Source of the DNA: an uncultured Gammaproteobacteria bacterium
Lineage (GTDB): Bacteria > Pseudomonadota > Gammaproteobacteria > Magnimaribacterales > TMED112
DNA: 64,000 bases
Reading direction: 5' to 3'
NCBI GenBank assembly: GCA_913052565.1
Contig: CAJXFH010000003.1
Span: 6,702 to 70,701 of the forward strand
This document shows, piece by piece, positions 6,774-40,018 of the stretch. Under the pieces are notes generated by a model. That model was given only the letters and a program-made list of their open reading frames with translations, was not told the origin of the DNA and ran no database searches. Numbering within the stretch: position 1 is the first letter of the stretch; every line of letters starts with the position of its first letter. The position numbers and the translations under genes were made by a program.

Positions 6774-8069
6774 TTATACTCCCAATAACATTGATTCTGG
6801 TGACTCAAGAACATCTTTTATTTTTACCAGAAATGATACAGCATCTTTGCCATCTAAAAGCCTATGATCATAAGTTAATGCTAAATACATCATTGGTCTT
6901 ATCTCTATTGAACCATTTAAAGCAACTGGTCTTTCTTGTATCTTATGCATACCTAAAATAGCTGATTGAGGTGGATTTAAAATTGGAGTCGAGATCAAAG
7001 AACCAAAAACACCCCCATTTGAAATTGTAAAAGTGCCACCTGTTATATCTTCAATGCCTATTTTTCCTTCTCTTGCCTTTAATGAAAAATCTCTTATAGC
7101 AATTTCAATTTCAGCAATAGTCAGATTTTGAACATTTCTTACAACTGGAACAACAAGTCCTCGTTCAGTAGAAACTGCAACACCTATATCTTGGAAACCA
7201 TGATATACAATGTCCTTTCCATCAATTGAAGCATTAACAATTGGCATTTCTTGAAGAGCAATACTTGAAGCTTTCAAAAACATGCCCATGAATCCCAATT
7301 TAACACCAAATTTATCTTCAAAAGTCTCTTTATATTTTTCTCTTAGTGCTTTTATTTCATGTAGGTCAACTTCATTAAAAGTAGTTAAAGATGCAGTTTG
7401 TGATTGTGATTCAAGTAACCTTTCAGCTACAACTGAACGCAATCTACTCATTGGTACTCTTTTTGATTCTTCGACTGCTTTTGACTCATCCTTTTTAATG
7501 TTTTCAGTTGGCTTTTCAGAATCTATTGATGCCTCCATTACATCTTTTTTAGTAATTACTCCTTTTTTTGAGGACGAGGCAACATTTTCTATTGGCACAG
7601 ATTTTTCTTTAAGTAGTTTCTTGGCAGCAGGTCCCATTCTGAAACCTTTAAGGTCTTGATCTCCAATATCTGATGTATTTGTATCTGATTCGACTTTTGT
7701 TGGAGCTATATCAGGAGCAGGTTCTTCAATTAATTTCTTCGGCTCTTCAATTATTTCTTCTGGTTCTTCTACAGTATTAATTTCACTCTCAGTTTTCTTA
7801 GTTTCAACTTCTACTTTATTACTTGCGCCAGATTGCTCATTATAATTTCCAATAATTTCAGAACTTTTAATAGTAGAGCCCTCATCAACAATAATTTTAC
7901 CCATTATTCCGTCAGTTGGTGCAGTTACTTCTATTACTACTTTGTCAGTTTCAATCTCTGCTAATACCTCATCTTGTTTAATTTCTTGTCCTTCTTTTTT
8001 CAACCAACTTGAAAGAGTACCTTCAAATATTGATTCAGGGAATTGTGGAGATTTTATGTCTACAGCCAT
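6774..8069 (-). CDS. sucB: 2-oxoglutarate dehydrogenase E2 (dihydrolipoyllysine succinyltransferase)
   Basis: 431 aa. It has one lipoyl domain with EIETDKVV, a Pro/Glu-rich linker and the catalytic motif DHRLLDG. Confidence 0.95.
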
Positions 8070-8079
8070 GTTGAATATT

Positions 8080-10866
8080 CTATAACTCTAATGCCTTTGT
8101 AACTATCTCTTTTTGACGTTTCAGGTGATATTTTTGAAATCCGCCCGCTGGAGCAGATGACGGATGTCTAGCAACTACATTTAGTTTGTATCCTTTTTTA
8201 GTTTCATTTAAAACTTTTTCAAGTCTATGCCTTATCATCAGCCATGCTCCCATGTTTTCCGGTTCTTCTTGTACCCATAAAAAGTCTTTACATTTAATTT
8301 CTTTAGTAAAGCTAAGAAGCTCGCTTTCAGGGAAAGGGTAAAGTTGCTCAATCCGAACAAGTTGTATATTTTTAATCTTCTGATTATCCATTTCAGATTT
8401 AAGATCAAAGTAAATTTTTCCTGAGCAAAAAATCACTCTCTTTGTAATCGATTTCTGTTCCTCAACGATAATATTCTTGAAGGAACCATTTGTTATATCT
8501 TCAATATTGGAAGTAGCCATTGGGTTTCTTAATAAACTCTTCGGTGTTAAAACAACTAATGGTTTTCTTGTCGGCTTAATAACTTGTTTTCTAAGTAAAT
8601 GAAAAATTTGTGCTGGCATTGTAGGCACACAAACTTGGATATTATCGTATGCACAAAGTTGTAGAAATCTTTCAAGCCTACAACTGCTATGCTCAGGCCC
8701 TTGACCTTCATACCCATGAGGAAGAAACATTGTTAATCCAGACAGTCTGTTCCATTTTGTTTCAGCACTTACAATAAATTGATCTATTACGACTTGAGCA
8801 ACATTCACAAAGTCACCAAATTGTGCCTCCCAAACGATCAGACCTTCTGGCCAAGTTGATGCATACCCATATTCAAAAGCTAAAACGGCTTCTTCAGAAA
8901 GAAGAGAGTCATAGATTTCAAATTTTTTGTTGCCATTATTTAAATTTGACAATGGTACGTAGCCGATACCTGTCTTCTGGTCTTTTACAACAAGATGACG
9001 GTGAGAAAAAGTTCCTCTTCTAGTATCTTGTCCAGTAATTCTTACAGGGTAGCCCTCACCAAGCAGAGTTGAATATGCTGCCATTTCTGCAAAACCCCAA
9101 TTCATTGGAAGTTCACCATCAAGCATTTTTCTGCGCTCATCATATAGTTTTCCAACTTGTTTTTGAACCTCAATATTTGGCTCAAAGTTCATTCCAACTT
9201 CCATTGTGTTTTTTAATAGTTCAAGTGATACTGCTGTAGGATATGGTTTACTGAGATCTGGTTTTAAATAAGGGCTCCAGTCAAAATGAAGACCACTGTC
9301 TGGGTTCATTGCCATTGATTCGGCAACCATTTCACCTTTTTCCATGTGAGACCGGTATTCTTTCTTAAAACCATCAAACATATTTTCCTGAATGGAATCA
9401 TTTTTGATCAATTTTTGAAAATATAAATCTGTAACTGTATTTTTAGATTTAATTTCTTTATACATCATCGGCTGTGTTGCAAAAGGCTCATCAGTTTCGT
9501 TATGCCCTCTTCTCCTGTAACAGACAAAATCTACAATTATGTCTCTGTGAAAAGTATCTCTATACTCCACTGCAAGTTTAGCTGCCATCACACAAGCTTC
9601 CGGGTCATCTCCGTTAACATGAATTATTGGAGCTTCAACCATCTTAGCAACATCAGTGCAATACTCAGTTGAACGTGCATCTTCTTTTAAGCTTGTAGTA
9701 AAGCCTATCTGGTTATTGACAACTATATGTACTGTTCCACCTGTACCGTAAGCTCTGGTCTGTGATAATTGCAGAATCTCCATCACAATTCCTTGTGCTG
9801 AAAAAGAAGCATCACCATGCATCAGTATGGGAACGACTTTTTTGCCATCTTTATCTTCTCTTCTATCTTGTCTAGCTCGTACAGATCCAAGGACAACAGG
9901 GTTTACGATTTCGAGATGTGATGGATTTGAACCCAGAGCAAGATGTACTTGCCCACCACTAGTTAAGATGTTTGAGGAAAAACCAAGGTGATATTTCACG
10001 TCTCCAGTATGTTCAATATCTTCCTCAAAATCCTCAGCAAACTCAGTGAATAATTCACTTGGTTTTTTTCCCATTACATTGATTAGCACATTAAGCCTTC
10101 CTCTGTGTGACATCCCCATTACAATTTCTTTAGCTCCCTTTGAGCCGAAATCTTCGATCAGAGTATCAAGGAGGGGAATTAATGATTCACCGCCTTCAAG
10201 ACCAAATCTTTTTGCTCCTGGATATTTTGAAGCTAGAAACTTCTCAAGACCCTCTGAATCAACCAACCTTTTTAGAATGTGCTGTTTTTCTTCTTTATTG
10301 AATGAGTAAGGTGTCTTCTTACCTTCAATTTTATCTAGAAACCAGCCTCTAATTTTACTGTTCATTATGTGCATAAACTCATAACCTATGCTTGATGTGT
10401 AAGATGTTTTGATAGATTCTAAAATTTCTACTAGTTTAAGTTTTTTATTATTTTGGAAATTGGAAATTGAAAATTCTTTGTTCAGATCCTCATTTGAAAG
10501 CCCATGAAATTCAAGTTCAAGGTCGGGGATTTTTACATCCTCTCTTAGATGTAATGGATCAATTTTGGCAACCTGATGGCCTCTTCTTCTGTAAGCATTA
10601 ATTAAGTTTTGAATATCTGATGATTTAGAATTTGTCTTAACTGTAGTTTGGTCTTTAGTGGAAAAATTTATATTTTTTAAAGAACTTAATATATCTTTAT
10701 GGCTGACATCAGTAGCTCCATTTTGAATAGAGTCAAAATATTTCTTCCACTCTGGTTTGATAGTATTTGGATCATTTAAGTACTGCTCGTATAAATGATT
10801 TAAATATTCTGAATTCCCACCGTATTTGAAGCTATCTTTTAGCCTCTCCTCAATTGATTTAGACAC
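8080..10866 (-). CDS. sucA: 2-oxoglutarate dehydrogenase E1 component
   Basis: 928 aa with E1o-type regions ([20 protein letters not shown]). Its operon position is between sdhB and sucB. Confidence 0.95.
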
Positions 10867-18507: not shown

Positions 18508-19613
18508 TGTTTAAGTATCGTATTTCTTTTTTGATCTGCAATTTTTGTAACCTCTTCAATTAGAGCACTTTCCAGATCATTAGTTTCAACTTTGTATGCT
18601 GGTTTACCATTTAAGTAAATTAAATGTTTTGGTGCTGCACCTGTAACACCAACATCTGCAATTTTTGACTCTCCTGGTCCATTTACATAACACCCAATGA
18701 CTGCAAGAGTAACTTCCTCTTTTAGGTATGAAAGCTCATTTTCTAACTTATTAACTGTATTAATTACTTGAAAGTTTTGTCTCGAGCAGCTCGGACAAGC
18801 GACGATTTTTACACCTCTCGACCTAAGTTTCAAGGACTTTAGCATTTCCCACGCAACATTTACTTCATCTATTGGATCTGAAGCAAGTGATACTCGAACT
18901 GTATCTCCGATCCCTTTCATTAAAAGTGAGCCAAGACCTATTGATGACTTTACTGTACCTGTTTTGAGAGATCCCGATTCAGTGATCCCAAGATGAAGTG
19001 GCTGTTCTATTAAATCAGAGATTTTTTCATAACTTTCAACTGCCATAAATATATCTGAAGACTTTATGCTTAATTTAAAATTTTCATAGTCATTCTTTTT
19101 TAAAATTTCTACATGTCTCATTGCAGATTCGACAAGAGCATCAGCATTTGGCTCCCCATATTTTTTTTGTAAATCTTTTTCCAGTGATCCTGCATTAACT
19201 CCTATTCTAATAGGTATGTCTTTTTCTTTTGCTGCATTAATTACTTCTTTAATTTTCGTTTCATTTCCAATGTTTCCAGGATTAATCCTTACACAATCCA
19301 CTCCATATTCCATTACTTTAAGGGCTATTTTGTAATCAAAATGTATATCTGAAACTAATGGAATATTTGTTTTTAATTTAATGTCTTTAAATGCTTCTGC
19401 AGCTTCTAAAGATGGAACAGAAACCCTGACAATATCTGCACCAGCATCTTCAAGATCATTTATCTGTTTTACAGTAGCATCAACATCAGTGGTTTGAGTG
19501 TTAGTCATTGATTGAACAGAAATTGGTGAGTTTCCACCAACAGGCACATCCCCAACCCAGATTTTTTTAGTTTTCTTTCTTATTACAGGTTGTTCGTTCA
19601 ATTTGTTAGCCAA
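18504..19613 (-). CDS. ispG: 4-hydroxy-3-methylbut-2-en-1-yl diphosphate synthase
   Basis: 369 aa of the GcpE family ([30 protein letters not shown]). Confidence 0.95.
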
Positions 19614-20022
19614 CTATTTCTGAGGATTCAAAAAAATACTCTATTTCTCTTGCAGCACTAGTTGTTGAATCTGAGCCATGAACAGCATTCGCATCAATTG
19701 ATTCAGCAAAATCAGCTCTTATTGTTCCGGTTTCAGCTTCTTGAGGGTTTGTATTTCCCATGAGCTCACGATTAAGTTTTACAGCATTTTCTCCAGCTAA
19801 GACTTGAACAACAATTGGGCCTGAAGTCATAAACTCAACTAGCGCATCAAAAAATGGTTTTCCATCGTGCTCAGCATAAAAACCTCTCGCTTGTTTCTGA
19901 TCTAGTTGAATCATTTTGCAAGCAACTATTTTAAGTCCTGCATCTTCAAACCTTTTTTGAATGCTTCCGATGACATTTTTTTTGACGGCATCCGGCTTAA
20001 TTATTGATAGTGTTTTTTCCAT
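19606..20022 (-). CDS. ndk: Nucleoside diphosphate kinase
   Basis: 138 aa with [10 protein letters not shown] and the active-site His in NAVHGSDS. Confidence 0.95.
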
Positions 20023-20023
20023 T

Positions 20024-20221
20024 TCAATCTCGCTCCTCTATCCAGTTTTGCTGTATTGATTCTAGAATCCTTTCATTAACTTTTTCAGGAATATCATCGA
20101 AATCATCTAATTTCATTACTAGGTTTCGTAAGTCTACAAAATTAATCCACTGAGGATCGATTTCTGGATATTTCTCTGATAATTCAATCGCAATATCTAG
20201 TGTATCAACCCATTTTAGCAT
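20024..20221 (-). CDS. iscX: Fe-S assembly protein IscX
   Basis: 65 aa and acidic. It aligns by eye with E. coli IscX (YPEIDP, DDFDD) and lies directly after fdx. Confidence 0.8.
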
Positions 20222-20222
20222 G

Positions 20223-20543
20223 TTATGTTAACTCAGAAACTTGGTTAATTGTATATTTTGGTATTTCTATGATCGTCACTTCATCTGCAGGGTAAACTTG
20301 GCAGCTTAATCTCGAATTTGCCTCTAAACCCCAGGCTTTATCAAGAAGGTCTTCTTCTTCATCACTAGCATCATCTAAGTTGTCAAACCCTTCTTTAACT
20401 ATTATGTGACAAGTGGTACATGCGCAAGCTTTTTCACAAGCATGTTCAAGATTTATTCCATTTCTTAAACAAGCATCAAGAATGGTTTCATTTGGCTCAA
20501 CATCTATGGTCATGCCATCAGGACAAATCACCTCATGCGGCAA
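20223..20543 (-). CDS. fdx: ISC-type [2Fe-2S] ferredoxin
   Basis: 106 aa with adrenodoxin-type ligands CEKACACTTCH and SRLSCQV, ending in the EIPKYTIN tail. Confidence 0.9.
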   Translation of the reverse strand: MPHEVICPDGMTIDVEPNETILDACLRNGINLEHACEKACACTTCHIIVKEGFDNLDDASDEEEDLLDKAWGLEANSRLSCQVYPADEVTIIEIPKYTINQVSELT

Positions 20544-20548
20544 AATTT

Positions 20549-20947
20549 TTAATTTTTTTTTTGTATTTTGCTGGTTTCAGTAGTGTTGGCTTCATCCTCC
20601 CTTACTGTGAAGCTTTCACCACAACCGCAAACTGCACTTGCATTTGGATTAATGAATTTGACACCTTGGTTTAAACCTTCGATTGTAAAATCTACCTGGC
20701 TTCCTCGGATAATATTGATCGAATCAGATGGGATGCAGAATTCTATGTCATCCACAAGCAATTTATGGTCTGATTTATTTATTCTACTTGTGAATTCAAA
20801 GAAGTATGAATAACCATTACAACCCATTTTCTTTACACCTAACTTAACTTTATTTTCCTTACCCTGCATAGATACCATGTGCTTGAAGTGAGCAAGTGCT
20901 TTGGTTGTGAAGTTTAGAACTTCTGGTTTATGCTTTTTTGGATTCAT
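20549..20947 (-). CDS. iscA: A-type iron-sulfur carrier IscA
   Basis: 132 aa with ligands GCNGYSY and CGCGESF. It has about 8 extra aa at the N-terminus and about 17 extra aa at the C-terminus compared with the 107-aa E. coli IscA. It overlaps iscU by 20 nt. Confidence 0.85.
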   Translation of the reverse strand: MNPKKHKPEVLNFTTKALAHFKHMVSMQGKENKVKLGVKKMGCNGYSYFFEFTSRINKSDHKLLVDDIEFCIPSDSINIIRGSQVDFTIEGLNQGVKFINPNASAVCGCGESFTVREDEANTTETSKIQKKN

Positions 20948-21326
20948 AATCTGCTATTGCTTTTTTTATGCTGTCTTCAGCTAAAACACTGCAGTGAATC
21001 TTAATTGAAGGCAACTCTAGTAATTCTGCTATCTCTCTATCTTTGATCTTTTTCGCTTCTTCGAGTGTTTTGCCTTTAAGCATTTCAATCATCTGTAAAC
21101 TTGAAGCAATTGCTGAGCCGCAACCATAAGTCTTAAATTTACAATCTGTAATGATATTTTCATCATTTACTTCAATCTGAAGCCTCATGACATCGCCACA
21201 GGCTGGAGCGCCTACCATACCTGTTCCAACATGTTTGGAATTAGGATCTAATCTTCCAACATTATGTAGTTGAGGATTATTTAGTGTGTCCTCAAATTTT
21301 TTTATTACCTTTCTAGAATAAGCCAT
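20928..21326 (-). CDS. iscU: Fe-S cluster scaffold IscU
   Basis: 132 aa with GAPACGD, YGCGSAIAS and HCSVLAED. The position of the canonical LPPVK motif reads LPSIK. Confidence 0.95.
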   Translation of the reverse strand: MAYSRKVIKKFEDTLNNPQLHNVGRLDPNSKHVGTGMVGAPACGDVMRLQIEVNDENIITDCKFKTYGCGSAIASSLQMIEMLKGKTLEEAKKIKDREIAELLELPSIKIHCSVLAEDSIKKAIADYESKKA

Positions 21327-21332
21327 ATCTAA

Positions 21333-22550
21333 TTAATGGTGTACCCACTCCACTTTTTCAAGATCTACACCATCTAAATACATATCCCATAGTGGTGACA
21401 GCTCTCTCAACTGCTTAACAACTTTCTTTGCTGTTTGTGCGACCATTTTAACCTCATCTACGGTGGTAAATCTACCAAAAGAGAAACGTATTGAACTGTG
21501 TGCAAGCTCATCTGGTCTGCCGAGAGCCCTTAAAACGTATGATGGTTCTAAGCTGGCTGATGTGCAAGCTGAACCAGAAGATACAGCAACATCCTTCAAA
21601 GCCATTATCAGTGATTCACCCTCAATGTAAGCAAAACTGACATTTGTGATATTTGGAACTTTATTTTTAAAGCTACCATTTAAGACAATCTCTTCAATGT
21701 CTGATATCTCTTGCCAAAATATTTCTGATAATTCTTTTATTTTTTTATTATCTGACTCCATTTCTTCAGCGGCAATTTTAAATGCTTCACCCATACCCAC
21801 AATTTGGTGGGTAGGTAATGTGCCAGCCCTAAATCCTCTTTCGTGGCCACCGCCATGGAGAAGTGCTTCAAGCCTTACTCTTGGCTTTCTTCTTACATAC
21901 AAGGCACCTATTCCTTTTGGACCATATGTTTTGTGGCCTGAGAAAGACATCAAGTCTACTTCTAAATTTGATAAATCTATTGGTAATTTTCCGGTGCTTT
22001 GTGCAGCATCAACATGGAATATTATCTTATTTTCTCTTGTGAATTTTCCTATCTCTTCAATATCATTTACTGCCCCAAGCTCATTATTAATGTGCATTAT
22101 TGATATAAGAATAGTGGAATCTTTGACGTGTTTCTTGATATTTTCGAGGGAAATCACTCCGTCTTCATCTGGATCAAGATAAGTTATTTCAAATCCCTCT
22201 CTTTCAAGTTGTCTGCAAGGGTCAAGTACAGCCTTATGCTCGATTTTTGAGGTAATTATGTGGTTTCCTCTATCTTTATAGAATCTTGCTGCTCCTTTTA
22301 TTGCTAAATTGTCTGATTCTGTAGCTCCTGAAGTCCAAACAATCTCTCTTGAATCAGCATTTACAAGGTTTGCAACTTGCAATCTTGCTTTTTCAACTGC
22401 TTCATCTGCTTTCCATCCAAACTCATGTGATCTAGATGCTGGATTACCGAAATTTCCATCTAGCAGAAGGCATTCATGCATTTTATCTGCAACTCTTGGA
22501 TCAACAGGAGTTGTAGATGCATAGTCGAAATATACTGTTTTATTCTTCAT
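21333..22550 (-). CDS. iscS: Cysteine desulfurase IscS
   Basis: 405 aa with the PLP-Lys in [10 protein letters not shown] and the active-site Cys loop SSGSACTS. Confidence 0.95.
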
Positions 22551-22591
22551 GTTCTTTAATTATAAAATAATGTAGTGTCTTAGACTAATAT

Positions 22592-23305
22592 TTAAATACT
22601 AATTCCAAGTTTGTGGGCCACAATTTGATAAGATTCAACAACATCTCCAAGATCTTTTCTAAATCGATCTTTATCAAGGCTTTCGCCTGTTGCTTTGTCC
22701 CAAATTCTGCAACCATCAGGAGTGAATTCATCACCGAGCACAATATTGTGATCGCTTCGACCAAATTCGACTTTATAATCAACTAAGATAAGGCCAACTC
22801 TATCAAAAATTTCACATAACAAATCATTAATAACTAATGTTTTTTCTTTCATGATTTTTATTTCTTTTTCTGTTCCCCAACCAAAAGCAATAATGTGATT
22901 ATCATTGATTAATGGATCGCCCAGATCATCATCTTTTAGGAAAAATTCAAATAGTGGTTGATCAAACTCTAAGCCTTGCTCAACACCTAGTCTTCTGCAA
23001 ATTGAACCAGTTGCTATATTTCGAACTACGCATTCTACCGGCAACATATCCAAACGCTTAACCAAGCTCTCTGTTTCATTTACTGTTTCTATAAAATGTG
23101 TATCTATTCCGTTTTCAGAGAGGTATTGCATGATGTGTGCATTAAATTTATTGTTTATTTCACCTTTGCCTTTAAGAGCCTCTTTCTTCTTACCATCAAA
23201 AGCAGATGTATCATCTCTATAAACCATTAGCAGCTCATCATTCTTTGATGTCTCATACAATGATTTTGCTTTTCCTTCTGCTAATAAATTTTTCTTATCG
23301 ATCAT
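22592..23305 (-). CDS. purC: Phosphoribosylaminoimidazole-succinocarboxamide synthase
   Basis: 237 aa of the SAICAR synthetase family (GKAKSLYET, VDYKVEFG). Confidence 0.93.
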   Translation of the reverse strand: MIDKKNLLAEGKAKSLYETSKNDELLMVYRDDTSAFDGKKKEALKGKGEINNKFNAHIMQYLSENGIDTHFIETVNETESLVKRLDMLPVECVVRNIATGSICRRLGVEQGLEFDQPLFEFFLKDDDLGDPLINDNHIIAFGWGTEKEIKIMKEKTLVINDLLCEIFDRVGLILVDYKVEFGRSDHNIVLGDEFTPDGCRIWDKATGESLDKDRFRKDLGDVVESYQIVAHKLGISI

Positions 23306-32222: not shown

Positions 32223-35200
32223 TTATTCGTTGACTGTTAGATCAAAAACTTGAACAGCAGCATCTGTACCATCGCTTACTACAATTCTGACAGTGTATTC
32301 TCCTATGTCGTCTTCTCTCGGAGTACCTGTAACACGTCCGTTAGCAGGAGATATTGATAAGAAATCAGCAGCTGAACCGTCAGATTTTTTTGTTATTTCC
32401 ATTGTATATGTAAGCACATCACCATCTTCATCCTCTGCTCTTAGACCATAGAAGTATAGTTGGTTAACGTATGCGTCTGTAAATGGAGAAGTAGTAATAA
32501 CAGGCGCATTATTAGCAACACCTTCTAATTCCGGTGCTAGGTTTATTGACAGATCTGAAACATTTGAGTCGGTTATTTCAAATATTGAACTTGAACCAGT
32601 CATTTCACCTGGACCACCATAAGAATTATCACCATTAATATCTGATCCTATAGTCATTCGGTAGTTACCTGGGTTGATTCCTGTGAATACAAATGTGCCT
32701 TGTCCATCTATCACAGGTGAAAATACTTCTTGTACAGGTATTCCATTTTCATCAAGCAACCTTGCTTTCAGTGCTGGAAGGTTGATATCGTAGGCTTCAC
32801 CAATAACATTAAAGATTACATTCACTCCAACAGAGAGTAACTCATAACCATCAAAAGGAAGATCTGCCCCTTCGATGAGAGGAAAGTCAAATAAGATTGT
32901 TGAATTAACCCAACCCGCCCAAGTGTAGTCTTCTTTCTTGGAGACTGTGAAATTAAATCCGTCTGCTGAAACATCTAAAAATTCAGATTGATAAGTATAA
33001 GTAACATCATTGAAGCCTTCACCAGCTGCACCACTTGGGGTAATAGTGAATTGTCCTGAATAGTTATCCTCTGGAAGAAGAGTAACTAATGATGGTCCCT
33101 GATAGTAAGGTAGGGAATCAAAGCTTGTGAAATAACCATTTTCAAATGAATCAACTGCTTTGATAGCTTTATGCAAGTCAATTATTCCATAACCTAAATG
33201 CTCATCCCAACCAGGTCTAGCAACAGAATCATTTGGTCTAGCTTCTTTGTTTACATCATTTGTTAGCAAGTTAGCAGCTAGCATTTTATCAACCTCAACA
33301 TAGGTTAACTGGCTTGGTAAGCTTGGGTTTGATTCATAAGGCTTTACGATGTCCTCATAATAATATTTAACAAGACCTAAAAATCCTGCGCCATGAGGGG
33401 AAGCCATAGAAGTTCCTTGTGCCCCTATTAGTTGGTTACCATTATTGCTGGATTGAATATAACTATCTACATATGCATATGCATAAACTAGATCATCGAC
33501 TCCATCTGCATTCCAATCAGAGTATTCTCCTCCAGGTGCAGAGAAATCTACATATTCATTTGTTGAAGAATAACTGGATCTTCTATCTGTTCCGTTGGTT
33601 GCACCAACTGAATAAACTTTTGGACAAGCAGCTGGATAGCTCGTTGAACCTACACCTCCGTTACCAGATGATGAAGCAATAAGAACGCCTTTATCTGCAA
33701 GCTCACCTAGTTTTGTACATGATGCAGATGTTGGACTTCCTCCACCGCCGCCGTAACTCATATTCATTGAGTGTAAAGTTTCACCACCACTTCTTTGTGA
33801 AAAACTTGTACCTGAGTCATTGCTATCTCCATTTAAAAACAGATACGCTGCATAAGTTGGGCCACAACCATTTTGATAACAGACCCTCACAGGAGTAACT
33901 TTTGCACCCATACCGTTTCCATCTATACCATCATTAAGCATAGAAATTGTGCTTCCAACGTGTGTCCCATGACTAAAAGATCCTTGCTCAAATTCAATAT
34001 CATCAGCAAGAGGATCGTTATCTTCCATATCCCATCCCCATTCAGTAGTGAATATTGATCTTTGGAATGCAGGGTCTGGCAAGTAAGGACTTCCAGAGTC
34101 TAGTACTGCAACATTTACTGGTTTAGTCTCCTGGCCAATAATATCTAGAGCTTCAGGAATATTTACAACATCGAAGTTCCACCATTGATATGTGTTATAA
34201 CTTGGGTCTTGTGTAAAAGGTTCATACTGAAGTGAACGATTCCAACTTGGTTCTACAAATAAATTTGGAGACCTTTCTTTAAGGACAGAAATTGCTTTCA
34301 TATATCTACCCCTTTCATACGCATCCGGCAGACTCTCCCTTAACGTTGATGTGTACTCTTCATCTTGCCCTAGACCTGCCATTTTTGCTAAATCAGACAT
34401 TGTTACATCAACTAAACCGCCTTCGACATTTCCCATTTCTTGAATGAGTTCATTCTCCGTTTGATTTGTATTGAATCCATCAAATGCTGGTTTTTTAGCT
34501 AGGAGAATTTTTTCTAAATCAAAATCAGCATTAGCTTCATCAGCTGCCTCTTTCAATGCATTTGAGCTGGCAAATTGCGGAGTTTGTGTTATTACATATG
34601 CTGAAGGGATTGAGTTATCAACTCTGTAATGATCAATAAAGACATAGTAAATATCTCCTTCACCAGCAGGTATATAAGCAGTTTCAACTTTATTGTAAGT
34701 ACCACCGACGTTGTCTGTATTTTCTTCCGAATCAATGATGAACATATCTAAATCAACATTTGAATTTGTAGCTGAAGGATTGCCATTATGATTTACCATT
34801 GTAAGTTCAAGGTTGATCCTACCAGGGCCTGCAATTACTTGGAAAAGATCTGCGTCATCTTCTCCACCTAGCCAACCTAATATAGTTGAACCTTCCTCTA
34901 TAAATTGAGCTCTGTTTGTAAAGTTATTCGATATGTTTTCAAAATCTGGATTATTAATATCTGAATCAAGTGCGAAAGGACCATCAATTCCTAATGCACC
35001 ACCAACGTTATATGTTCCAGGGCTTGGTTCTGGAGTTGGTTCAGGCGTTGGTTCAGGCGTTGGTTCTGGTGTTGGTTCAGGCGTTGGCTCTGGTGTTGGT
35101 TCAGGCGTTGGTTCTGGGGTTGGTTCAGGCGTTGGCTCTGGTGTTGGTTCTGGTGTTGGTTCAGGCGTTGGTTCTGGAGTTGGCTCTGGTGTTGGTTCTG

Positions 35201-35780
35201 GTGTTGGTTCCAGTGTAGTTCCATCGGCATTGAACAGATACCAAACTCCACCACTACCATTTCCGTTTGCATCACTATCAGAACTGTCACCAGTGTACTG
35301 ATAGGCTGGTTGGTTGTTGATAAGAATTTGATTTTCTGAATTTTTTGTAAATGTGGCTGTGAAAGATGCAGGTTCTGTAATTACCAGCTCAGATATATCT
35401 CTATCTGTTGTCACGTATGGCCAAGCTGAGCCCTGATATGTGCCGACACCGTCATTAATTCCATCTGGCGTGTAAGCGTAAATTGTTCTCAGATTTGCTA
35501 CCGCATTCCCACCCGGAGTAGCACTTGCATTAACTCCTGACATCTGTATCACCTCATATGCACTTCCGTCAATTGTTACGGATAGAAGAGATGCAGTTAA
35601 TGGTGCTGGTGTTGGTTCTGGTGTTGGTTCAGGTGTTGGAGCTGGTGTTGGAGCTGGTGTTGGAGCTGGTGTTGGGTATGGGTTAGGAGTTACTGGCTCA
35701 ACTGAACTACCTCCTCCTCCGCAGGCAACAAGAATAGCTGTTGAAAGTGCTGAGAAGACGAGATTTAGGTTCTTTTTCAT
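32223..35780 (-). CDS. Large cell-surface lipoprotein subtilisin-like (S8) serine protease with PT/EPTP linkers, a PPC-like domain and a C-terminal Ig/cadherin-like domain
   Basis: 1185 aa. The lipoprotein signal is ...STAILVAC|GGGG. Residues about 61-190 resemble the COG4315/PF03640 secreted-lipoprotein repeat ([14 protein letters not shown]; [14 protein letters not shown]). A PPC-like region contains DDADLFQV. The S8 triad is D561 (VAVLDSG), H604 (HGTHVGS) and S791 ([11 protein letters not shown]), with an oxyanion Asn in SSSGNGG. The C-terminus has a He_PIG-like domain ([19 protein letters not shown]). Confidence 0.85.
35021..35211 (-). repeat. In-frame tandem 12-nt repeat, 16 units, encoding (EPTP)15-EPSP
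   Basis: The plus strand shows ggttc[t/a]gg[n]gtt units. They encode aa 191-254 of the protease. Third codon positions vary between units. Confidence 0.95.
35601..35690 (-). repeat. In-frame Pro/Thr/Ala-rich repeat encoding [25 protein letters not shown]
   Basis: This is a second PT linker immediately after the lipobox Cys (aa about 31-60). It uses the same 12-nt unit family as 35021-35211. Confidence 0.9.
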
Positions 35781-35885: not shown

Positions 35886-35961
35886 TGGTGGGTCGTATAG
35901 GATTCGAACCTATGACCAACGGGTTAAAAGCCCGGTGCTCTACCAGCTGAGCTAACGACCC
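35886..35961 (-). tRNA. tRNA-Lys (anticodon UUU), CCA encoded
   Basis: The reverse complement is GGGTCGTTAGCTCAGCTGGTAGAGCACCGGGCTTTTAACCCGTTGGTCATAGGTTCGAATCCTATACGACCCACCA. It has a 7-bp acceptor stem, a D arm GCTC/GAGC, a T arm ATAGG-TTCGAAT-CCTAT and an anticodon loop CTTTTAA. It is close to E. coli tRNA-Lys, and a tRNA-Lys after cpoB matches the E. coli arrangement. Confidence 0.95.
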
Positions 35962-37112: not shown

Positions 37113-38366
37113 TTATCTTAAAAATGGTGACCATGCAGGTTCTTTTAATTCTCCAAATAATGCCGGAAGCTTAAAGCTTACCTTGCTGCTTATATTTACA
37201 CCAGCAAGATAAGACAAACTACCTTCTTTAGCAGAATAAATTATAACATTCCCATTTGGTGCAATACACGGACTTTCATCATTTTTAGTGGTTGTAAGTA
37301 CTTCAAGCTTTCTAGTTGTAAGATTCATTTTCGCAACATTAAAATTTGAGCTAAAACGATGAACCAGGACAATCTCATCTTCACTAATATATGAAGCCCT
37401 AGCGTTATAAGTGCCTTGAGTTGTTAATCTCCTTTTTAATTTCGTCCTGACATTTATTTCATAAATTTGGGGGCTGCCAGATCTATCAGAAGTAAAAATT
37501 ATTTTCTTTCCATCCGGTGACCATGCAGGCTCAGTATCGATTGCGCTATTTTCTGTCAGCCTAGAGATTTTTTTATTGTTCAAATCAATGATATAAATTT
37601 CAGAGTTGCCATCTTTTGTACTAGTAAGTGCCAGATTCTTTCCATCCGGTGACCATGCAGGTGAGCTAACTGAAGAACTAGAACTTAATATTAAATCTCT
37701 TTTGCCTGATGCTAGATCTTGAATGAATACCTGTGCTCTATTATTTTCAAAAGACACATAGGCAATTTGTTTTCCATCACTCGACCATGCTGGCGAAATA
37801 ATAGACTTATTGGATTTTAATAAAACCTGGTCATTGAATCCATCGGCATCACTAATAATCAGTTTATGAGTATCAAGGTTTTTAGTTACATACATCAGTT
37901 TGGTTGAAGAGATTCCATCAATTCCATAAAAGTACTTATAAACACCATCAGAAATATAGTGGCTTGTTTGTCTGAGACTATCAGGCAAACCTAAAATAAT
38001 TTTTTTCTCTTCGACTTCATCGTAACTTACATCAAAAAGTGACCAGTCAATATCTAAACTGCCTGATGTACTATCTATCTCTAAAAACAAAATTGAATCT
38101 ACATCTAATAAAAGCCAATCTCTTTGAATTACCTCAGATTCGTTGGCAGGAACACTTAATAATTCATTGATTCCTAATATTTCAAATTCTCCTGTTCTCT
38201 TAAGATCATTGCTCACAATTTCAATGATCTCTTGGCCGACCATTGAGTTATTATTTTTTTCTAAAATAGCAATTTTTACTGGCTTAGAAGCTCCTTCTGT
38301 TATTTCTAAGACAAGGTCCGAAAAAGCATAGAAGCTGAATAGAAGTAATAAAAATAATGCTCTCAT
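37113..38366 (-). CDS. tolB: Tol-Pal system beta-propeller protein TolB
   Basis: 417 aa with a signal peptide and repeated SPAWSPDGK blades. Confidence 0.93.
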   Translation of the reverse strand: MRALFLLLLFSFYAFSDLVLEITEGASKPVKIAILEKNNNSMVGQEIIEIVSNDLKRTGEFEILGINELLSVPANESEVIQRDWLLLDVDSILFLEIDSTSGSLDIDWSLFDVSYDEVEEKKIILGLPDSLRQTSHYISDGVYKYFYGIDGISSTKLMYVTKNLDTHKLIISDADGFNDQVLLKSNKSIISPAWSSDGKQIAYVSFENNRAQVFIQDLASGKRDLILSSSSSVSSPAWSPDGKNLALTSTKDGNSEIYIIDLNNKKISRLTENSAIDTEPAWSPDGKKIIFTSDRSGSPQIYEINVRTKLKRRLTTQGTYNARASYISEDEIVLVHRFSSNFNVAKMNLTTRKLEVLTTTKNDESPCIAPNGNVIIYSAKEGSLSYLAGVNISSKVSFKLPALFGELKEPAWSPFLR

Positions 38367-38956
38367 TCTGGTTTGAATCTCAAAGTAAACTTAGAAAAAT
38401 AAATTCTATATTCTTCATCATTAATGGTATTAATATATCGCACTTGCTTATATTTCCTTATAGCATTAAGAGCCGCTCTATCAAATGCCTTATTTCCACT
38501 CGATTGAACTAATTCAATATCATCGATTAACCCAGACCTGCTAAGACTTAAAGAAAAATCTGCAAACATTCCTTTTTTAGAATTATTGGGCTTAATCCAC
38601 AACTCTTCAATATCTTTGATAACTTTGGAACTGATTTGTTCAACAATATCGATATTCTCTAATATTTTTTTTTGCAATGCTTCCTCTTCAAGGTATTCAT
38701 CAAGATTTTCTATTTGTTTTTGTTTTAATTTGGTTTCTGCTATTTGCTCACTTTTTGCCAGATTTTCATTTTTGCTTGAGGTGACTGTTTTTGATTTTTT
38801 AACTTCAATTGTTTCTTTTGGCTCTTCAATAAAATTTACATTTGTAATTTTTCTGAAGGTTTCTTTAGTTTCAGAAACTGAAAAAACTTCGTAACTAATG
38901 AAAATGAGGACATGGACAATGACAGATAACAAAATAGCACTTATCCATCTAATCAT
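38363..38956 (-). CDS. tolA: Tol-Pal system protein TolA (short form)
   Basis: 197 aa with an N-terminal TM helix, a Lys/Glu-rich helical spacer and a TonB_C-like C-terminal domain (NKAFDRAALNAIRKY). It lies between tolR and tolB. Confidence 0.75.
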   Translation of the reverse strand: MIRWISAILLSVIVHVLIFISYEVFSVSETKETFRKITNVNFIEEPKETIEVKKSKTVTSSKNENLAKSEQIAETKLKQKQIENLDEYLEEEALQKKILENIDIVEQISSKVIKDIEELWIKPNNSKKGMFADFSLSLSRSGLIDDIELVQSSGNKAFDRAALNAIRKYKQVRYINTINDEEYRIYFSKFTLRFKPE

Positions 38957-39373: not shown

Positions 39374-40018
39374 TTAATTATTTTTAAATTGAGTTATTAA
39401 CTCCTCAGCAAAAGCGAGAGAACCATTGATCAAATTATCCAATTTTTTGGAAAATTGATTATAGGCAATAAGTGCTGGTATAGCAGCTAACAAACCAACT
39501 GCTGTTGCTACTAAAGCTTCTGAAATTCCAGGCGCAACAGAACTTAAAGTAAGTTGTGCAGTTGTTGATAGTCCTTGGAAAGCGTTAATGATTCCAATCA
39601 CAGTACCCAATAATCCGATGTATGGCGCACTTGAGCTAATTGTAGCCAGAAGTGCAAGGTTTTTAGATAATCTTTCTTCTTCTCTATTTGCAACAACTCT
39701 TATAAGCCTTTCTGTTGATTCAATATCTGAATTTGAATTGCTCTTTGATTTCAGTCCATCACATATTGTCACTAATACAAGTTCAAATGGTTCTAATTCT
39801 GAGCCTTTGTCTTTTATTGATAAATAAAGATCGTCAATTTTTTCGCCTTCCCAAAACCTATCCTCTAAGTCATGAGAGGCTTTTGTTGCCTTTGACAAAG
39901 TAAAGTATTTTTCGAAAATTAAAATCCATGAAGTGACTGATGCAATGACTAAAATGACCAAAATTATTTGGACCGGCAAGGAAGCTTGCAACAACATTTC
40001 TACTGCATCAAAATCCAT
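39374..40018 (-). CDS. tolQ: Tol-Pal system protein TolQ (MotA/ExbB family)
   Basis: 214 aa with three TM helices and the conserved ApYIGLLGTViGI region. Confidence 0.92.
   Translation of the reverse strand: MDFDAVEMLLQASLPVQIILVILVIASVTSWILIFEKYFTLSKATKASHDLEDRFWEGEKIDDLYLSIKDKGSELEPFELVLVTICDGLKSKSNSNSDIESTERLIRVVANREEERLSKNLALLATISSSAPYIGLLGTVIGIINAFQGLSTTAQLTLSSVAPGISEALVATAVGLLAAIPALIAYNQFSKKLDNLINGSLAFAEELITQFKNN

What the first reader, a model, noticed from the sequence alone, without database searches (positions are those of the whole stretch)
20024..22550. ISC operon without hscB, hscA or iscR, and an IscU with an altered HscA-docking motif
Seen in the sequence:
- iscS, iscU, iscA, fdx and iscX are contiguous.
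- The iscA stop at 20549 is 5 nt from the fdx start at 20543, so hscB-hscA cannot lie between them.
- The gene upstream of iscS is purC, separated by a 41-nt spacer, so there is no iscR.
- IscU reads ELPSIKIHCSVLAED.
- IscX and Fdx, which normally accompany the chaperones, are retained.

Established knowledge:
- The canonical gammaproteobacterial order is iscR-iscS-iscU-iscA-hscB-hscA-fdx-iscX.
- HscA recognises the invariant LPPVK motif of IscU. Here that motif is LPSIK.

Inference: the dedicated HscBA chaperone pair has been lost and IscU has drifted at the docking site. Cluster transfer would then be chaperone-independent or taken over by a general Hsp70. The alternative is that the chaperone genes have relocated.
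Basis: partly seen in the sequence, partly recalled or inferred. Interest (0 to 1): 0.6.

Follow-up and report, generated by a model that had tools for sequence, protein, structure and literature searches.

The report
Chaperone-less iron-sulfur operon with frame-split IscA-ferredoxin
In the abundant ocean bacterium SAR86 the iron-sulfur cluster operon lacks its dedicated chaperone pair and its regulator at this locus, and the two genes that flanked the chaperones now form one carrier-ferredoxin gene that, in this genome, is split by a one-base frame offset inside a run of ten A's.

Summary
On the minus strand the order is purC, iscS, iscU, iscA, fdx, iscX, ndk. No iscR, hscB or hscA lies here or elsewhere in the 64 kb. 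IscU reads LPSIK.

The window is SAR86 (Magnimaribacterales). All 24 distinct SAR86-like loci examined lack hscBA at the operon. All 61 informative non-SAR86 isc loci, and 73 of 73 other fdx loci, keep it.

The central proline of LPPVK is invariant in 61 hscBA-bearing IscUs. In SAR86 it became Ser at least twice and Ala at least once. A proposed second HscA site, VTEWVKG, reads MIEMLKG. Genome-wide absence of hscBA could not be tested.

The fdx frame continues upstream as KKKLKILPHE into an A10 tract and matches E. coli Fdx from residue 3 of its MPKIVILPH N-terminus. It lies at -1 to iscA, and five of the 13 species representatives with a readable junction have no canonical start codon. Its dN/dS is 0.02-0.13.

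Sister lineages encode the same junction as a single-ORF IscA-Fdx fusion, and another lineage encodes Fdx-IscA.

I infer that Fdx here is made as an IscA-Fdx fusion, by transcriptional slippage or a -1 frameshift.

The parts
22592..23305 (-). purC, the gene directly upstream of iscS where iscR would normally sit
   Evidence: TIGR00081, 238.6 bits against a cutoff of 189.9. The dapA-bamC-purC-iscS order recurs in all SAR86 loci.
22551..22591 (-). 41-nt purC-iscS spacer; there is no room for iscR
   Evidence: Sequence read. No Rrf2/IscR hit within 10 kb in any SAR86 locus. Promoter-like matches are not above the shuffled expectation.
21333..22550 (-). iscS, cysteine desulfurase
   Evidence: NF010611, 704.9 bits against a cutoff of 548.
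20928..21326 (-). iscU scaffold, divergent at positions otherwise invariant
   Evidence: TIGR01999, 180.6 bits against a cutoff of 192.4. About 60% identical to E. coli IscU 2L4X (aligned; identity estimated from the 59-63% tblastn values to other hscBA+ IscUs). 22 of 86 columns conserved in hscBA+ taxa are changed.
21000..21014 (-). LPSIK, in place of the HscA-binding L99PPVK103 motif
   Evidence: The Ser codon is TCA, against CCA in the LPPIK relatives.
21072..21092 (-). MIEMLKG, in place of V73TEWVKG79, the proposed second HscA recognition site
   Evidence: alignment. The site was proposed in PMC3438969. T74 and W76 are invariant in 61 hscBA+ IscUs and are changed in all 14 SAR86 IscUs.
20549..20947 (-). 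iscA (A-type carrier), zero-frame ORF ending at TAA 20549-20551
   Evidence: TIGR00049, 90.3 bits against a cutoff of 58.8; below the IscA equivalog cutoff.
20552..20602 (-). 17-residue hydrophilic tail of IscA (REDEANTTETSKIQKKN). It is variable between species and acts as a linker in the single-ORF fusions of relatives.
   Evidence: In the AlphaFold model of the natural fusion P0271, residues 119-145, which include the linker, have pLDDT below 50.
20553..20562 (-). A10 tract. It contains the heptamer A_AAA_AAA in the iscA frame, one codon before the stop. This is the proposed slippage or -1 frameshift site.
   Evidence: A10 in 11 independent assemblies of this species and A9-A10 in all 24 distinct SAR86-like loci (23 with a readable junction); this tract is the longest homopolymer in the window.
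20223..20561 (-). fdx reading frame (KKKLKILPHEVICPDG... to the stop), at -1 relative to iscA. The codon at the position of the ancestral ATG is now AAA.
   Evidence: fdx_isc, 158 bits. Residue-for-residue alignment to E. coli Fdx 1I7H from K3. dN/dS 0.02-0.13. Start-codon survey.
20024..20221 (-). iscX
   Evidence: TIGR03412, 96.4 bits against a cutoff of 40.4.
19606..20022 (-). ndk, the downstream boundary of the cluster, followed by ispG and hisS
   Evidence: The same order occurs in all SAR86 loci.

Best explanation
This is the ISC iron-sulfur cluster operon of SAR86 (Magnimaribacterales), a streamlined marine gammaproteobacterium. Three changes separate it from the standard operon.

1. 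iscR and the hscB-hscA chaperone pair were deleted from the locus in the ancestor of the group. This is shown for the locus and inferred for the genome.

2. The deletion joined iscA to fdx. Some SAR86 lineages encode a single-ORF IscA-linker-Fdx protein, and another lineage encodes Fdx-linker-IscA (shown). In the lineage of this window the same gene is offset by one base inside a conserved A10 tract. The zero frame gives IscA and stops. The Fdx part has lost its ATG and sits in the -1 frame.

I infer that Fdx is made as the C-terminal half of an IscA-Fdx fusion. The likeliest route is RNA polymerase adding one A on the A10 tract. Less likely is a -1 ribosomal slip on A_AAA_AAA. Either way the locus would yield two products, IscA and IscA-Fdx.

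3. With HscA gone, the IscU features that HscA reads are no longer held in place: LPPVK, VTEWVKG and the proline that isomerises in the structured/disordered switch. They have drifted. The pattern is shown; the cause is inferred.

By inference, cluster release from IscU would then be chaperone-independent. Tethering the ferredoxin to the A-type carrier may speed the downstream reductive step that builds [4Fe-4S] clusters.
For: Taxon and spread:
- IscS relatives at 83-91% identity are SAR86 genomes and SAGs.
- The exact IscU sequence occurs in 769 blocks of the contig index, with the same gene order in the 10 contigs shown, up to 259 kb (all marine metagenomes).

Loss at the locus:
- All 24 distinct SAR86-like loci examined have no hscB, hscA or iscR within their flanks of 1.5 to 10 kb, as far as each contig extends (some are short or cut).
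- All 61 informative non-SAR86 isc loci have hscB or hscB-hscA after iscA.
- 73 of 73 other fdx loci have hscA directly upstream.

Motif:
- P101 is invariant in 61 hscBA+ IscUs.
- The best 150 cluster representatives read LPPVK 125 times and LPPIK 6 times. Only 5 vary at the central proline.
- SAR86 has LPPIK, LPSIK and LPAIK, with at least two independent CCA-to-TCA changes.
- P101 is one of two prolines that turn cis in the disordered state that HscA binds (PMC4564936; PMC3438969).
- VTEWVKG, proposed as a second HscA site, is MIEMLKG in all SAR86.
- IscU is changed at 25.6% of otherwise conserved columns, against 8.1% for IscS. A low-GC hscBA+ control shows 11.6% and 8.7%.

Junction:
- The peptide KKK(L/I)K(I/V)LPH is conserved in the fdx frame, with synonymous changes at the Leu, Ile and Lys codons. 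AAT-to-AGC in L017 is two changes that are silent only in the fdx frame.
- L012, L017, L019 and L020 have no ATG, GTG or TTG up to +60 codons. In L015 the first is at +52.
- The frame aligns to E. coli Fdx from K3.
- dN/dS is 0.02-0.13 with dS above 1 in all but one very close pair (L022/L091, dS 0.175).
- A search with the conceptual -1 fusion found natural single-ORF fusions P0271 (78% identity, full length), P0272, P0274, P0275, P0277 and P0278. Five of the six show the predicted KKK(L/I)KILP junction; P0278, with a short linker, keeps only KIKILPH. Each found fusion carries both Pfam domains. P0271 and P0272 sit in the same operon context.
- In-frame and -1 genotypes interleave on the tree.

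Precedents:
- Citrobacter rodentium tssM1: a stop preceded by A11, with transcriptional slippage giving two required products (PMC4256274).
- Slippage on runs of 9 A, and in Buchnera and Blochmannia (PMC5009743).
- FDX2 supplies electrons for [4Fe-4S] assembly on ISCA1-ISCA2 (PMC9313013).
Against: - Genome-wide absence of hscBA, iscR or a substitute J-protein was not tested.
- No RNA or protein data show the fusion in this species. No assembled in-frame variant of this species is in the protein database; the best fusion hit is 78% identical.
- No conserved RNA structure follows the tract, so a classical stimulated -1 frameshift is unsupported.
- The concentration of IscU changes in HscA-contact residues is not significant: 5 of 13 against 13 of 68, p = 0.12.
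- Three consecutive Lys codons in a 34% GC genome would often be AAA anyway, so conservation of the tract is partly explained by codon bias.
- Only 15 of 60 genes here have a strong Shine-Dalgarno core, so its absence before fdx says nothing.
- L016 and L018 have an in-frame ATG two codons before KKK and could initiate Fdx separately.
- L014 has A9, which gives a +1 offset. This is either an error or a variant the model does not need.
- The neighbour-joining trees are rough.
- The AlphaFold model of the natural fusion is poor for the Fdx half: mean pLDDT 56.
Confidence: 0.62

Rival explanations
1. hscB-hscA, and perhaps iscR, have only moved elsewhere in the SAR86 chromosome. IscU is still served by HscA, and LPSIK/LPPIK remain adequate docking sites.
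For: - Absence was shown only for 64 kb of this genome and for flanks of up to 10 kb in relatives.
- LPPIK coexists with hscBA in Polynucleobacter necessarius (L053), so V102I at least is tolerated.
- LPPIK is the majority SAR86 form.
Against: - In 61 of 61 informative isc loci and 73 of 73 other fdx loci, hscBA or hscA sits inside the operon. Relocation would be exceptional.
- The central proline, invariant with hscBA, was replaced at least three times in SAR86.
- The proposed second HscA site is rewritten in all SAR86.
- iscA and fdx are physically fused across the former hscBA position.
Confidence: 0.12
2. In this lineage iscA and fdx are separate proteins again. Fdx starts at a non-canonical codon just after the iscA stop (ATT or ATA, or the TTG or CTG after it), by termination-reinitiation on an A-rich leader. 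The A10 run is simply KKK in an AT-rich genome.
For: - The ATT/ATA codon lies 2 nt after the TAA in almost all -1 species.
- Most genes in this genome lack a Shine-Dalgarno core and have A/T-rich leaders.
- No frameshift-stimulating structure was found.
- Gene callers annotate a separate fdx.
Against: - The candidate start codons vary synonymously as Ile (ATT, ATA, or GTA = Val) and as Leu (TTG, TTA, CTG, CTT). That is the pattern of elongation codons.
- Changes upstream of them (AAA TTA to AAG CTA) are silent only in the fdx frame.
- Starting there would remove the residues that align to E. coli Fdx K3-V5 (before the ATT/ATA codon) or K3-I6 (at the TTG).
- Sister lineages translate the same codons inside a single ORF.
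- The iscA stop is TAA in every lineage, although TAA is only 55% of stops in the window.
Confidence: 0.2
3. A general Hsp70 (DnaK with some J-protein) has taken over the HscBA step, as mitochondrial Hsp70 does in most eukaryotes.
For: There is precedent in mitochondria, where HscB homologues work with the generalist Hsp70 (PMC8215388). DnaK is a single-copy marker in SAR86 genomes.
Against: - Mitochondrial systems keep both a dedicated HscB-type J-protein and the LPPVK motif. Here no J-protein is at the locus and the motif is degrading.
- There is no positive evidence of any kind.
Confidence: 0.05
4. The frame split is an assembly error in a homopolymer, or fdx is a decaying pseudogene.
For: Homopolymers are error-prone. 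One MAG (L014) has A9.
Against: - A10 is identical in 11 independent assemblies of this species. The -1 offset recurs in 16 further loci, among them SAGs, MAGs and four contigs over 1 Mb whose names mark them as Pilon-polished.
- fdx dN/dS is 0.02-0.13 with synonymous sites saturated.
Confidence: 0.01

Closest known systems
Canonical proteobacterial ISC operon (E. coli, Azotobacter: iscR-iscS-iscU-iscA-hscB-hscA-fdx-iscX)
   Same: Orthologous IscS, IscU, A-type carrier, ISC-type [2Fe-2S] ferredoxin and IscX, in the same order. The downstream ndk-ispG-hisS neighbourhood is typical of Gammaproteobacteria.
   Different: - No iscR, hscB or hscA at the locus.
- IscU lacks the LPPVK and VTEWVKG sequences.
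- iscA and fdx are fused or frame-split.
- iscS follows purC directly.
Citrobacter rodentium and Yersinia tssM1 transcriptional frameshifting (PMC4256274)
   Same: A zero-frame stop codon follows a run of 10-11 A. The downstream domain is encoded in another frame. Two length variants come from one gene.
   Different: - The genes are unrelated (type VI secretion).
- There the slippage was demonstrated experimentally. Here it is inferred from comparative sequence only.
- Here in-frame and out-of-frame genotypes alternate among sister lineages.
Ancient poly(A) frameshifts rescued by polymerase slippage in the endosymbionts Buchnera and Blochmannia (cited in PMC5009743 and PMC3017870)
   Same: An AT-rich reduced genome. 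A frameshift inside a long A run persists over long evolutionary time while the downstream coding sequence stays under purifying selection.
   Different: SAR86 is free-living with very large populations, so persistence through weak selection is less plausible. The site also separates two functional domains, giving a useful short product.
Mitochondrial late ISC step: ISCA1-ISCA2 with ferredoxin FDX2 (PMC9313013)
   Same: The same functional pairing: an A-type carrier and an ISC ferredoxin that supplies electrons for reductive coupling of two [2Fe-2S] clusters into [4Fe-4S].
   Different: In mitochondria these are separate proteins and the Hsp70/HSC20 chaperones are retained. The SAR86 coupling is covalent, and its function is untested.
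Chaperone-independent U-type scaffolds (SufU, and the N-terminal domain of NifU)
   Same: A U-type scaffold working without HscBA and without a conserved LPPVK motif (PMC2644719; PMC4440780).
   Different: By sequence, SAR86 IscU is a true ISC-type IscU (about 60% identical to E. coli IscU). It still sits with Fdx, IscX and IscA. The loss is recent and secondary.

Membership tests
Proteobacterial ISC system | IscS-subfamily cysteine desulfurase | tested here: met
   NF010611, 704.9 bits against 548; TIGR02006, 698.1 against 643.2.
Proteobacterial ISC system | IscU scaffold with three Cys, Asp39 and His105 equivalents | tested here: met
   Cys43, Cys69, Cys112, Asp45 and His111 are present. TIGR01999 scores 180.6 bits, just below the 192.4 equivalog cutoff.
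Proteobacterial ISC system | LPPVK HscA-binding motif in IscU | tested here: not met
   LPSIK here. SAR86 as a whole has LPPIK, LPSIK or LPAIK.
Proteobacterial ISC system | hscB-hscA between iscA and fdx | tested here: not met
   The iscA stop and the fdx frame overlap. No Hsp70 signature in the 64 kb and one HPD match that does not look like a J domain. Absent from all SAR86 loci.
Proteobacterial ISC system | iscR upstream of iscS | tested here: not met
   purC ends 41 nt upstream. No IscR hit in any SAR86 locus.
Proteobacterial ISC system | ISC-type [2Fe-2S] ferredoxin and IscX | tested here: met
   TIGR02007, 158.2 bits against 132.1; TIGR03412, 96.4 against 40.4.
Proteobacterial ISC system | hscBA present anywhere in the genome | not testable with these tools
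   No whole SAR86 genome can be read. The literature search found no paper holding both 'SAR86' and 'hscA'.
Transcriptional slippage site (tssM1 / endosymbiont poly(A) type) | Homopolymer of at least 9 A or T in the coding strand | tested here: met
   A10 at 20553-20562. A9-A10 in all 23 SAR86-like junctions.
Transcriptional slippage site (tssM1 / endosymbiont poly(A) type) | Zero-frame stop soon after the run, and a conserved ORF in the frame reached by adding one A | tested here: met
   AAT TAA follows the run. The -1 frame encodes Fdx with dN/dS 0.02-0.13.
Transcriptional slippage site (tssM1 / endosymbiont poly(A) type) | mRNA population heterogeneous in run length; two protein products | not testable with these tools
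   Needs metatranscriptome reads or proteomics.
Programmed -1 ribosomal frameshift (dnaX / IS3 type) | X_XXY_YYZ slippery heptamer in the zero frame | tested here: met
   A_AAA_AAA at 20555-20561 in the iscA frame (frames worked out).
Programmed -1 ribosomal frameshift (dnaX / IS3 type) | Stimulatory element: a downstream stem-loop or pseudoknot, or an upstream Shine-Dalgarno-like sequence at the right spacing | tested here: not met
   RNAalifold on 10 species gave 3 pairs, -0.39 kcal/mol and no covariation. The only Shine-Dalgarno-like GGGAGG is about 38 nt upstream and is not conserved.
Natural IscA-Fdx fusion proteins of SAR86 | Fe-S_biosyn (PF01521) and Fer2 (PF00111) in one continuous ORF | tested here: not met
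   The window has the two domains in frames 0 and -1. The conceptual -1 product hits both domains. The relatives P0271, P0272, P0274, P0275, P0277 and P0278 are continuous ORFs.
Natural IscA-Fdx fusion proteins of SAR86 | Junction peptide ...KKK(L/I)KILP(H/N)... linking the IscA tail to Fdx strand 1 | tested here: met
   The window's fdx frame reads KKKLKILPHE. K134, K136, I137, L138 and P139 are invariant in the fusion alignment.

The most novel reading that the evidence does not exclude
SAR86 runs a chaperone-free type-I ISC pathway in which a covalent IscA-ferredoxin module functionally compensates for the lost HscBA release step. A conserved A10 tract acts as a programmed slippage device. 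It sets the ratio of free IscA to IscA-Fdx, and lineages toggle between in-frame and -1 genotypes.
Probability: 0.3. Interest if true: 0.85.

Novelty: new variant of a known kind. Interest (0 to 1): 0.68.

Why it matters
**Chaperone dependence.** HscA/HscB and their mitochondrial counterparts are treated as core parts of the ISC pathway, and IscU is HscA's only known client (PMC8215388). [quoted passage not shown] A lineage with a true ISC-type IscU, Fdx and IscX but no chaperones at the operon is a natural experiment. It would show which IscU features exist only for the chaperones: LPPVK, VTEWVKG, and the proline switch of the structured/disordered equilibrium. It would also show how cluster release can work without ATP.

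**Carrier-ferredoxin coupling.** IscA and ferredoxin are fused in both orders. This is independent genomic evidence for a direct carrier-ferredoxin partnership of the kind proposed for ISCA1/2 and FDX2.

**Recoding.** If confirmed, the A10 frame split would be a further chromosomal bacterial gene that depends on recoding. It would be a case of a long-lived poly(A) frameshift in a free-living organism with a huge population, not an endosymbiont.

**Annotation.** Current annotation calls a separate fdx, either N-terminally truncated (the 102-aa call in this species) or started at the non-conserved TTG (the 106-aa call in L091), and misses the fusion in the many SAR86 MAGs of the -1 type.

Tried and rejected
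1. **Whole-genome test for hscBA and iscR.** Not possible. The SAR86 isolate paper PMC11582366 and its 10 supplements contain no hsc, isc or KEGG entries for these genes. I ran no further search on HscA. Only the 120 best hits are listed, so a negative result would say nothing.

2. **Are SAR86-specific IscU changes concentrated in residues that sense HscA?** 5 of 13 against 13 of 68, odds ratio 2.6, p = 0.12. Suggestive only.

3. **Promoter or IscR-site search in the purC-iscS spacer.** Promoter-like hits are not above the shuffled expectation.

4. **Conserved RNA structure downstream of the A tract.** None found. I therefore favour transcriptional slippage over a stimulated ribosomal frameshift.

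5. **Shine-Dalgarno argument against independent fdx initiation.** Dropped. Only 15 of 60 genes in the window have a strong core.

6. **AlphaFold model of the natural fusion P0271.** The IscA half is confident and residues 119-145, which include the linker, are below pLDDT 50, but the Fdx half is poor (mean pLDDT 56). No fold search was run.

7. **Metagenome scan for more junctions.** These were still useful: L104 and L105 are a third -1 lineage, and the other 73 loci served as hscA-fdx controls.

8. **Remnants of hscB or hscA in the IscA tail or linker.** I looked for similarity by eye and found nothing recognisable.

9. **Pseudogene or assembly-error readings.** Rejected.

10. **Rfam scan of the window.** It found only one tRNA.


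Full report
**1. What is in the window**

On the minus strand the genes run in this order:
- purC, 22592-23305
- iscS, 21333-22550
- iscU, 20928-21326
- iscA, 20549-20947
- fdx, annotated 20223-20543
- iscX, 20024-20221
- ndk, ispG and hisS follow.

IscS, the ISC-type ferredoxin and IscX all pass their NCBIfam equivalog cutoffs. IscU scores 180.6 bits, just under its 192.4 cutoff. The A-type carrier passes only the generic model.

purC stops 41 nt before iscS, so there is no room for iscR. IscU reads ELPSIKIHCSVLAED.

No Hsp70 signature occurs in any frame of the 64 kb, and the single HPD match does not look like a J domain. The window's other ORFs of 120 aa or more that matched a family are ordinary housekeeping genes: TCA cycle, tol-pal, cell wall, tRNA synthetases (Pfam lists). 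The window is about 34% GC.

**2. Whose genome it is, and how general the arrangement is**

A genome-collection scan with IscS returned 14 loci at 83-91% identity, most labelled SAR86 cluster or Gammaproteobacteria (two carry other labels). The next-best hits are ordinary gamma-, betaproteobacterial and Myxococcota isc loci at 55-66%. SAR86 is now the order Magnimaribacterales (PMC11582366).

The exact IscU protein occurs in 769 blocks of the contig index; the 10 contigs shown are marine metagenome contigs with the identical gene order, up to 259 kb.

I searched every locus by tblastn with the window's ISC proteins and with E. coli HscA, HscB and IscR.
- None of the 14 SAR86 species loci shows iscR, hscB or hscA as far as its contig extends within 10 kb (three are short or cut; L021 ends just after iscS).
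- All 61 non-SAR86 loci that extend past iscA have hscB or hscB-hscA there.
- The same operon without the chaperone genes occurs on SAR86 contigs over 1 Mb, on two loci with a single-ORF fusion, on four loci of a more divergent SAR86-like lineage and on five metagenome loci.
- In that last scan, 73 of 73 unrelated fdx loci with upstream sequence have hscA immediately upstream.

Loss from the operon is therefore ancestral to, and fixed in, all the SAR86 diversity I could reach. It is exceptional among ISC-type systems.

**3. The IscU motif**

E. coli numbering was verified against PDB 2L4X and 3LVL. LPSIK corresponds to L99-K103, with P101S and V102I.

Among 61 hscBA-bearing IscUs, P101 is invariant and V102 is I only once, in Polynucleobacter necessarius. 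Among the 150 best representatives of 50%-identity clusters from 1.8 billion proteins, 125 read LPPVK and 6 read LPPIK. Only 5 vary at the central proline, and one of those is a SAR86-like LPAIK.

Within SAR86:
- 120 protein clusters split into LPPIK 91, LPSIK 25 and four rare singletons.
- The divergent Fdx-IscA lineage has LPAIK.
- On a neighbour-joining tree the CCA-to-TCA change arose at least twice: in the window's clade, and in L022/L023 against their near-identical sister L091.

So LPSIK is a derived state, and LPPIK is the likely ancestral SAR86 state. Position 101 behaves as unconstrained only in this group.

This matters mechanistically. HscA's only known client is IscU, bound through LPPVK (PMC8215388). 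P101 is also one of the two prolines whose peptide bond turns cis in the disordered state (PMC4564936), which is the state HscA binds (PMC3438969).

**4. Other changes in IscU**

SAR86 IscU differs at 18 E. coli-numbered positions that are at least 97% conserved in hscBA-bearing taxa, and it carries a 4+2-residue insertion in DHYENPRNVG. The changes fall in four regions:
- helix 1: D9, H10K, Y11F, R15
- helix 2: S71, L72Q, T74I, W76M
- helix 4: N90D, E96L
- the motif region.

V73TEWVKG79 was proposed by Kim et al. as a second HscA recognition site. It is MIEMLKG in every SAR86 IscU in that alignment, including the LPPIK ones.

The overlap with HscA-sensitive residues is suggestive but not significant: 5 of 13 against 13 of 68, p = 0.12.

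The acceleration is specific to IscU. In SAR86, 25.6% of conserved IscU columns are changed against 8.1% for IscS. A 33%-GC hscBA-bearing control (L027) shows 11.6% and 8.7%. AT pressure alone therefore does not explain it, although both P-to-S and V-to-I go in the AT direction.

**5. The iscA/fdx junction is not two ordinary genes**

The sequence reads ...ATA CAA AAA AAA AAT TAA AAATT TTG CCG CAT GAG....

- *The frame continues upstream.* In the fdx frame, which is -1 relative to iscA, all SAR86 species conserve KKK(L/I)K(I/V)LPHExICP(D/E)G. The 'start' codon varies as a synonymous leucine codon (TTG, TTA, CTG, CTT), and the codon before it as ATT, ATA or GTA.
- *Upstream changes are silent only in the fdx frame.* AAT-to-AGC in L017 is N-to-S in the iscA frame but AAA TTA to AAG CTA, silent, in the fdx frame.
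- *Start codons are missing.* Four of 13 species (L012, L017, L019, L020) have no ATG, GTG or TTG in that frame from the upstream stop to +60 codons, which is beyond the first cluster cysteines. L015 has none before +52.
- *The peptide is the native N-terminus.* It aligns residue for residue with E. coli Fdx 1I7H from K3 (MPKIVILPH against KKKLKILPH). The ancestral ATG position is now AAA, and a TTG start would delete the residues aligning to K3-I6.

The gene is nonetheless under strong purifying selection among these species, with dN/dS 0.02-0.13 and dS above 1 in all but one close pair. The A tract is A10 in 11 independent assemblies of this species and A9-A10 in every SAR86-like junction read. 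In the iscA frame it forms the heptamer A_AAA_AAA, one codon before the TAA.

**6. Independent confirmation that the fusion product is real**

I built the conceptual -1 product (241 aa, junction ...TSKIQKKKLKILPHEV...) and searched the 5.8-billion-protein collection.

- The top hit, P0271, is a natural single ORF of 243 aa. It is 78% identical over 100% of the query, carries both Pfam domains, and has the junction ...AAAQKKKLKILPHKD....
- P0272, P0274, P0275, P0277 and P0278 (51-57% identical; clusters range from 1 to 221 members) are further single-ORF IscA-Fdx fusions; four of them show ...LKKKIKILPHE...-type junctions and P0278 has the shorter ...MSKIKILPHE....
- P0271 sits in purC-iscS-iscU-[iscA::fdx]-iscX, and P0272 in iscU-[iscA::fdx]-iscX-ndk on a shorter contig. 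Both still carry an A10 tract.
- A second family of 242-aa proteins (about 40 of the listed clusters, P0295-P0336) has the reverse order, Fdx-linker-IscA. It lies in a SAR86-like operon, again without hscBA.
- On trees, in-frame and -1 genotypes interleave. L096 (in-frame) is sister to L104/L105 (-1), and L095 (in-frame) lies among -1 lineages.

**7. How it most likely works**

Shown:
- the chaperone and regulator genes are absent from the locus across the group;
- IscA and Fdx are fused in relatives;
- in this genome Fdx lacks its own ATG and sits at -1 behind an A10 tract;
- Fdx remains under selection.

Inferred: Fdx is expressed as IscA-Fdx. One route is RNA polymerase adding one A on the tract, which puts fdx in frame. 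The other is a -1 tRNA-Lys slip on A_AAA_AAA. Unslipped expression gives IscA alone.

I favour transcriptional slippage, for two reasons. No conserved stimulatory RNA structure follows the site. Runs of 9-11 A are established slippage sites: C. rodentium tssM1 has a stop preceded by A11 and needs both products, and the endosymbiont cases are cited.

The same tract in the in-frame lineages would, by slippage, yield some free IscA. This would explain why both genotypes persist.

Also inferred: IscU releases clusters without an ATP-driven chaperone. Tethering Fdx to the A-type carrier may favour reductive [4Fe-4S] formation, by analogy with FDX2 and ISCA1-ISCA2.

**8. Limits**

- I could not read a whole SAR86 genome, so relocation of hscBA remains possible. 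I put it near 12%.
- No paper in the searchable library holds both 'SAR86' and 'hscA'.
- Independent initiation of Fdx at ATT, ATA or TTG by termination-reinitiation is the main rival for the junction, at about 20%. L016 and L018 have an in-frame ATG.
- L014 has A9, giving a +1 offset.
- The trees are neighbour-joining on a few proteins.
- The AlphaFold model of the natural fusion is reliable only for the IscA half.

**9. Verdict**

- Loss at the locus and relaxation of the docking site hold.
- Genome-wide loss is untested.
- LPSIK is a sub-lineage state.

The larger point was missed: the deletion junction is a fused IscA-ferredoxin gene, and here it is split by a conserved poly(A) frame offset. 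I found no description of either feature in the literature I could search. I rate this a new variant of a known kind.

Noticed in passing
L025:9520-14420 and L026:9526-14320: Two low-GC (30-32%) marine gammaproteobacteria (SAG AH-326-M18 and a MAG labelled Ectothiorhodospiraceae) have iscR-iscS-iscA-hscB-hscA-fdx-iscX. In L025 the iscS stop and the iscA start are about 10 nt apart (in L026 the two ORFs overlap), so there is no iscU in the operon although its dedicated chaperones are kept. This is the mirror image of SAR86.
   Followed up: partly
L097-L100, about 8001-8729: A divergent SAR86-like lineage encodes the reverse-order fusion Fdx-linker-IscA (242 aa; P0295-P0336). The context is iscS-iscU-[fdx::iscA]-iscX-ndk-rodZ-ispG-hisS. 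Its IscU motif is LPAIK, and two extra genes (a TPP enzyme and an aldehyde dehydrogenase) lie between purC and iscS.
   Followed up: partly
L097:6129-7553: In that lineage iscS is called as 474 aa. The extra ~70 N-terminal residues weakly hit DUF6538, an integrase N-terminal domain (24.3 bits against a cutoff of 27). This may be a remnant or an over-extended ORF.
   Followed up: partly
window 38665-38673: The only other homopolymer of 9 nt or more in the 64 kb is an A9 on the coding (minus) strand, inside the TonB_C/TolA-like gene 38363-38956 of the tol-pal cluster.
   Followed up: no
window 35886-35961 (-): A single tRNA-Lys(UUU) gene lies just downstream of ybgF/cpoB. It is the only RNA gene found in the window. 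Its anticodon (UUU) matches the AAA lysine codons of the A10 tract.
   Followed up: no
window 32223-35780 (-): A 1185-aa protein with a subtilase (Peptidase_S8) domain and a C-terminal He_PIG Ig-like domain has no NCBIfam match. It occupies the only stretch of the window with GC above 40%.
   Followed up: no
window 43210-44481 (+) and 49233-50369 (-): A short-form ProRS (423 aa, PRK12325 type, apparently lacking the insertion domain of the ~560-aa form: it matches that profile in two stretches) and a fused bifunctional IspDF. Both are unusual for Gammaproteobacteria.
   Followed up: no
window 40018-40425 (-): A small PDDEXK_15 ('phage putative endonuclease') ORF sits at the head of the tolQ-tolR-tolA-tolB-pal cluster. 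The same family appears at the edge of SAR86 locus L091.
   Followed up: no
L014 (MAG CPC44), iscA/fdx junction: This one SAR86 species representative has A9 rather than A10. That puts fdx at +1 instead of -1 and extends the iscA ORF to ...KKIKNIAT. It could be a homopolymer assembly error or a genuine third genotype.
   Followed up: no
window 20928-20947: iscU and iscA overlap by 20 nt. The IscA N-terminal extension (MNPKKHKPEV...) is conserved in the natural fusion P0271, so the long start is probably real.
   Followed up: partly
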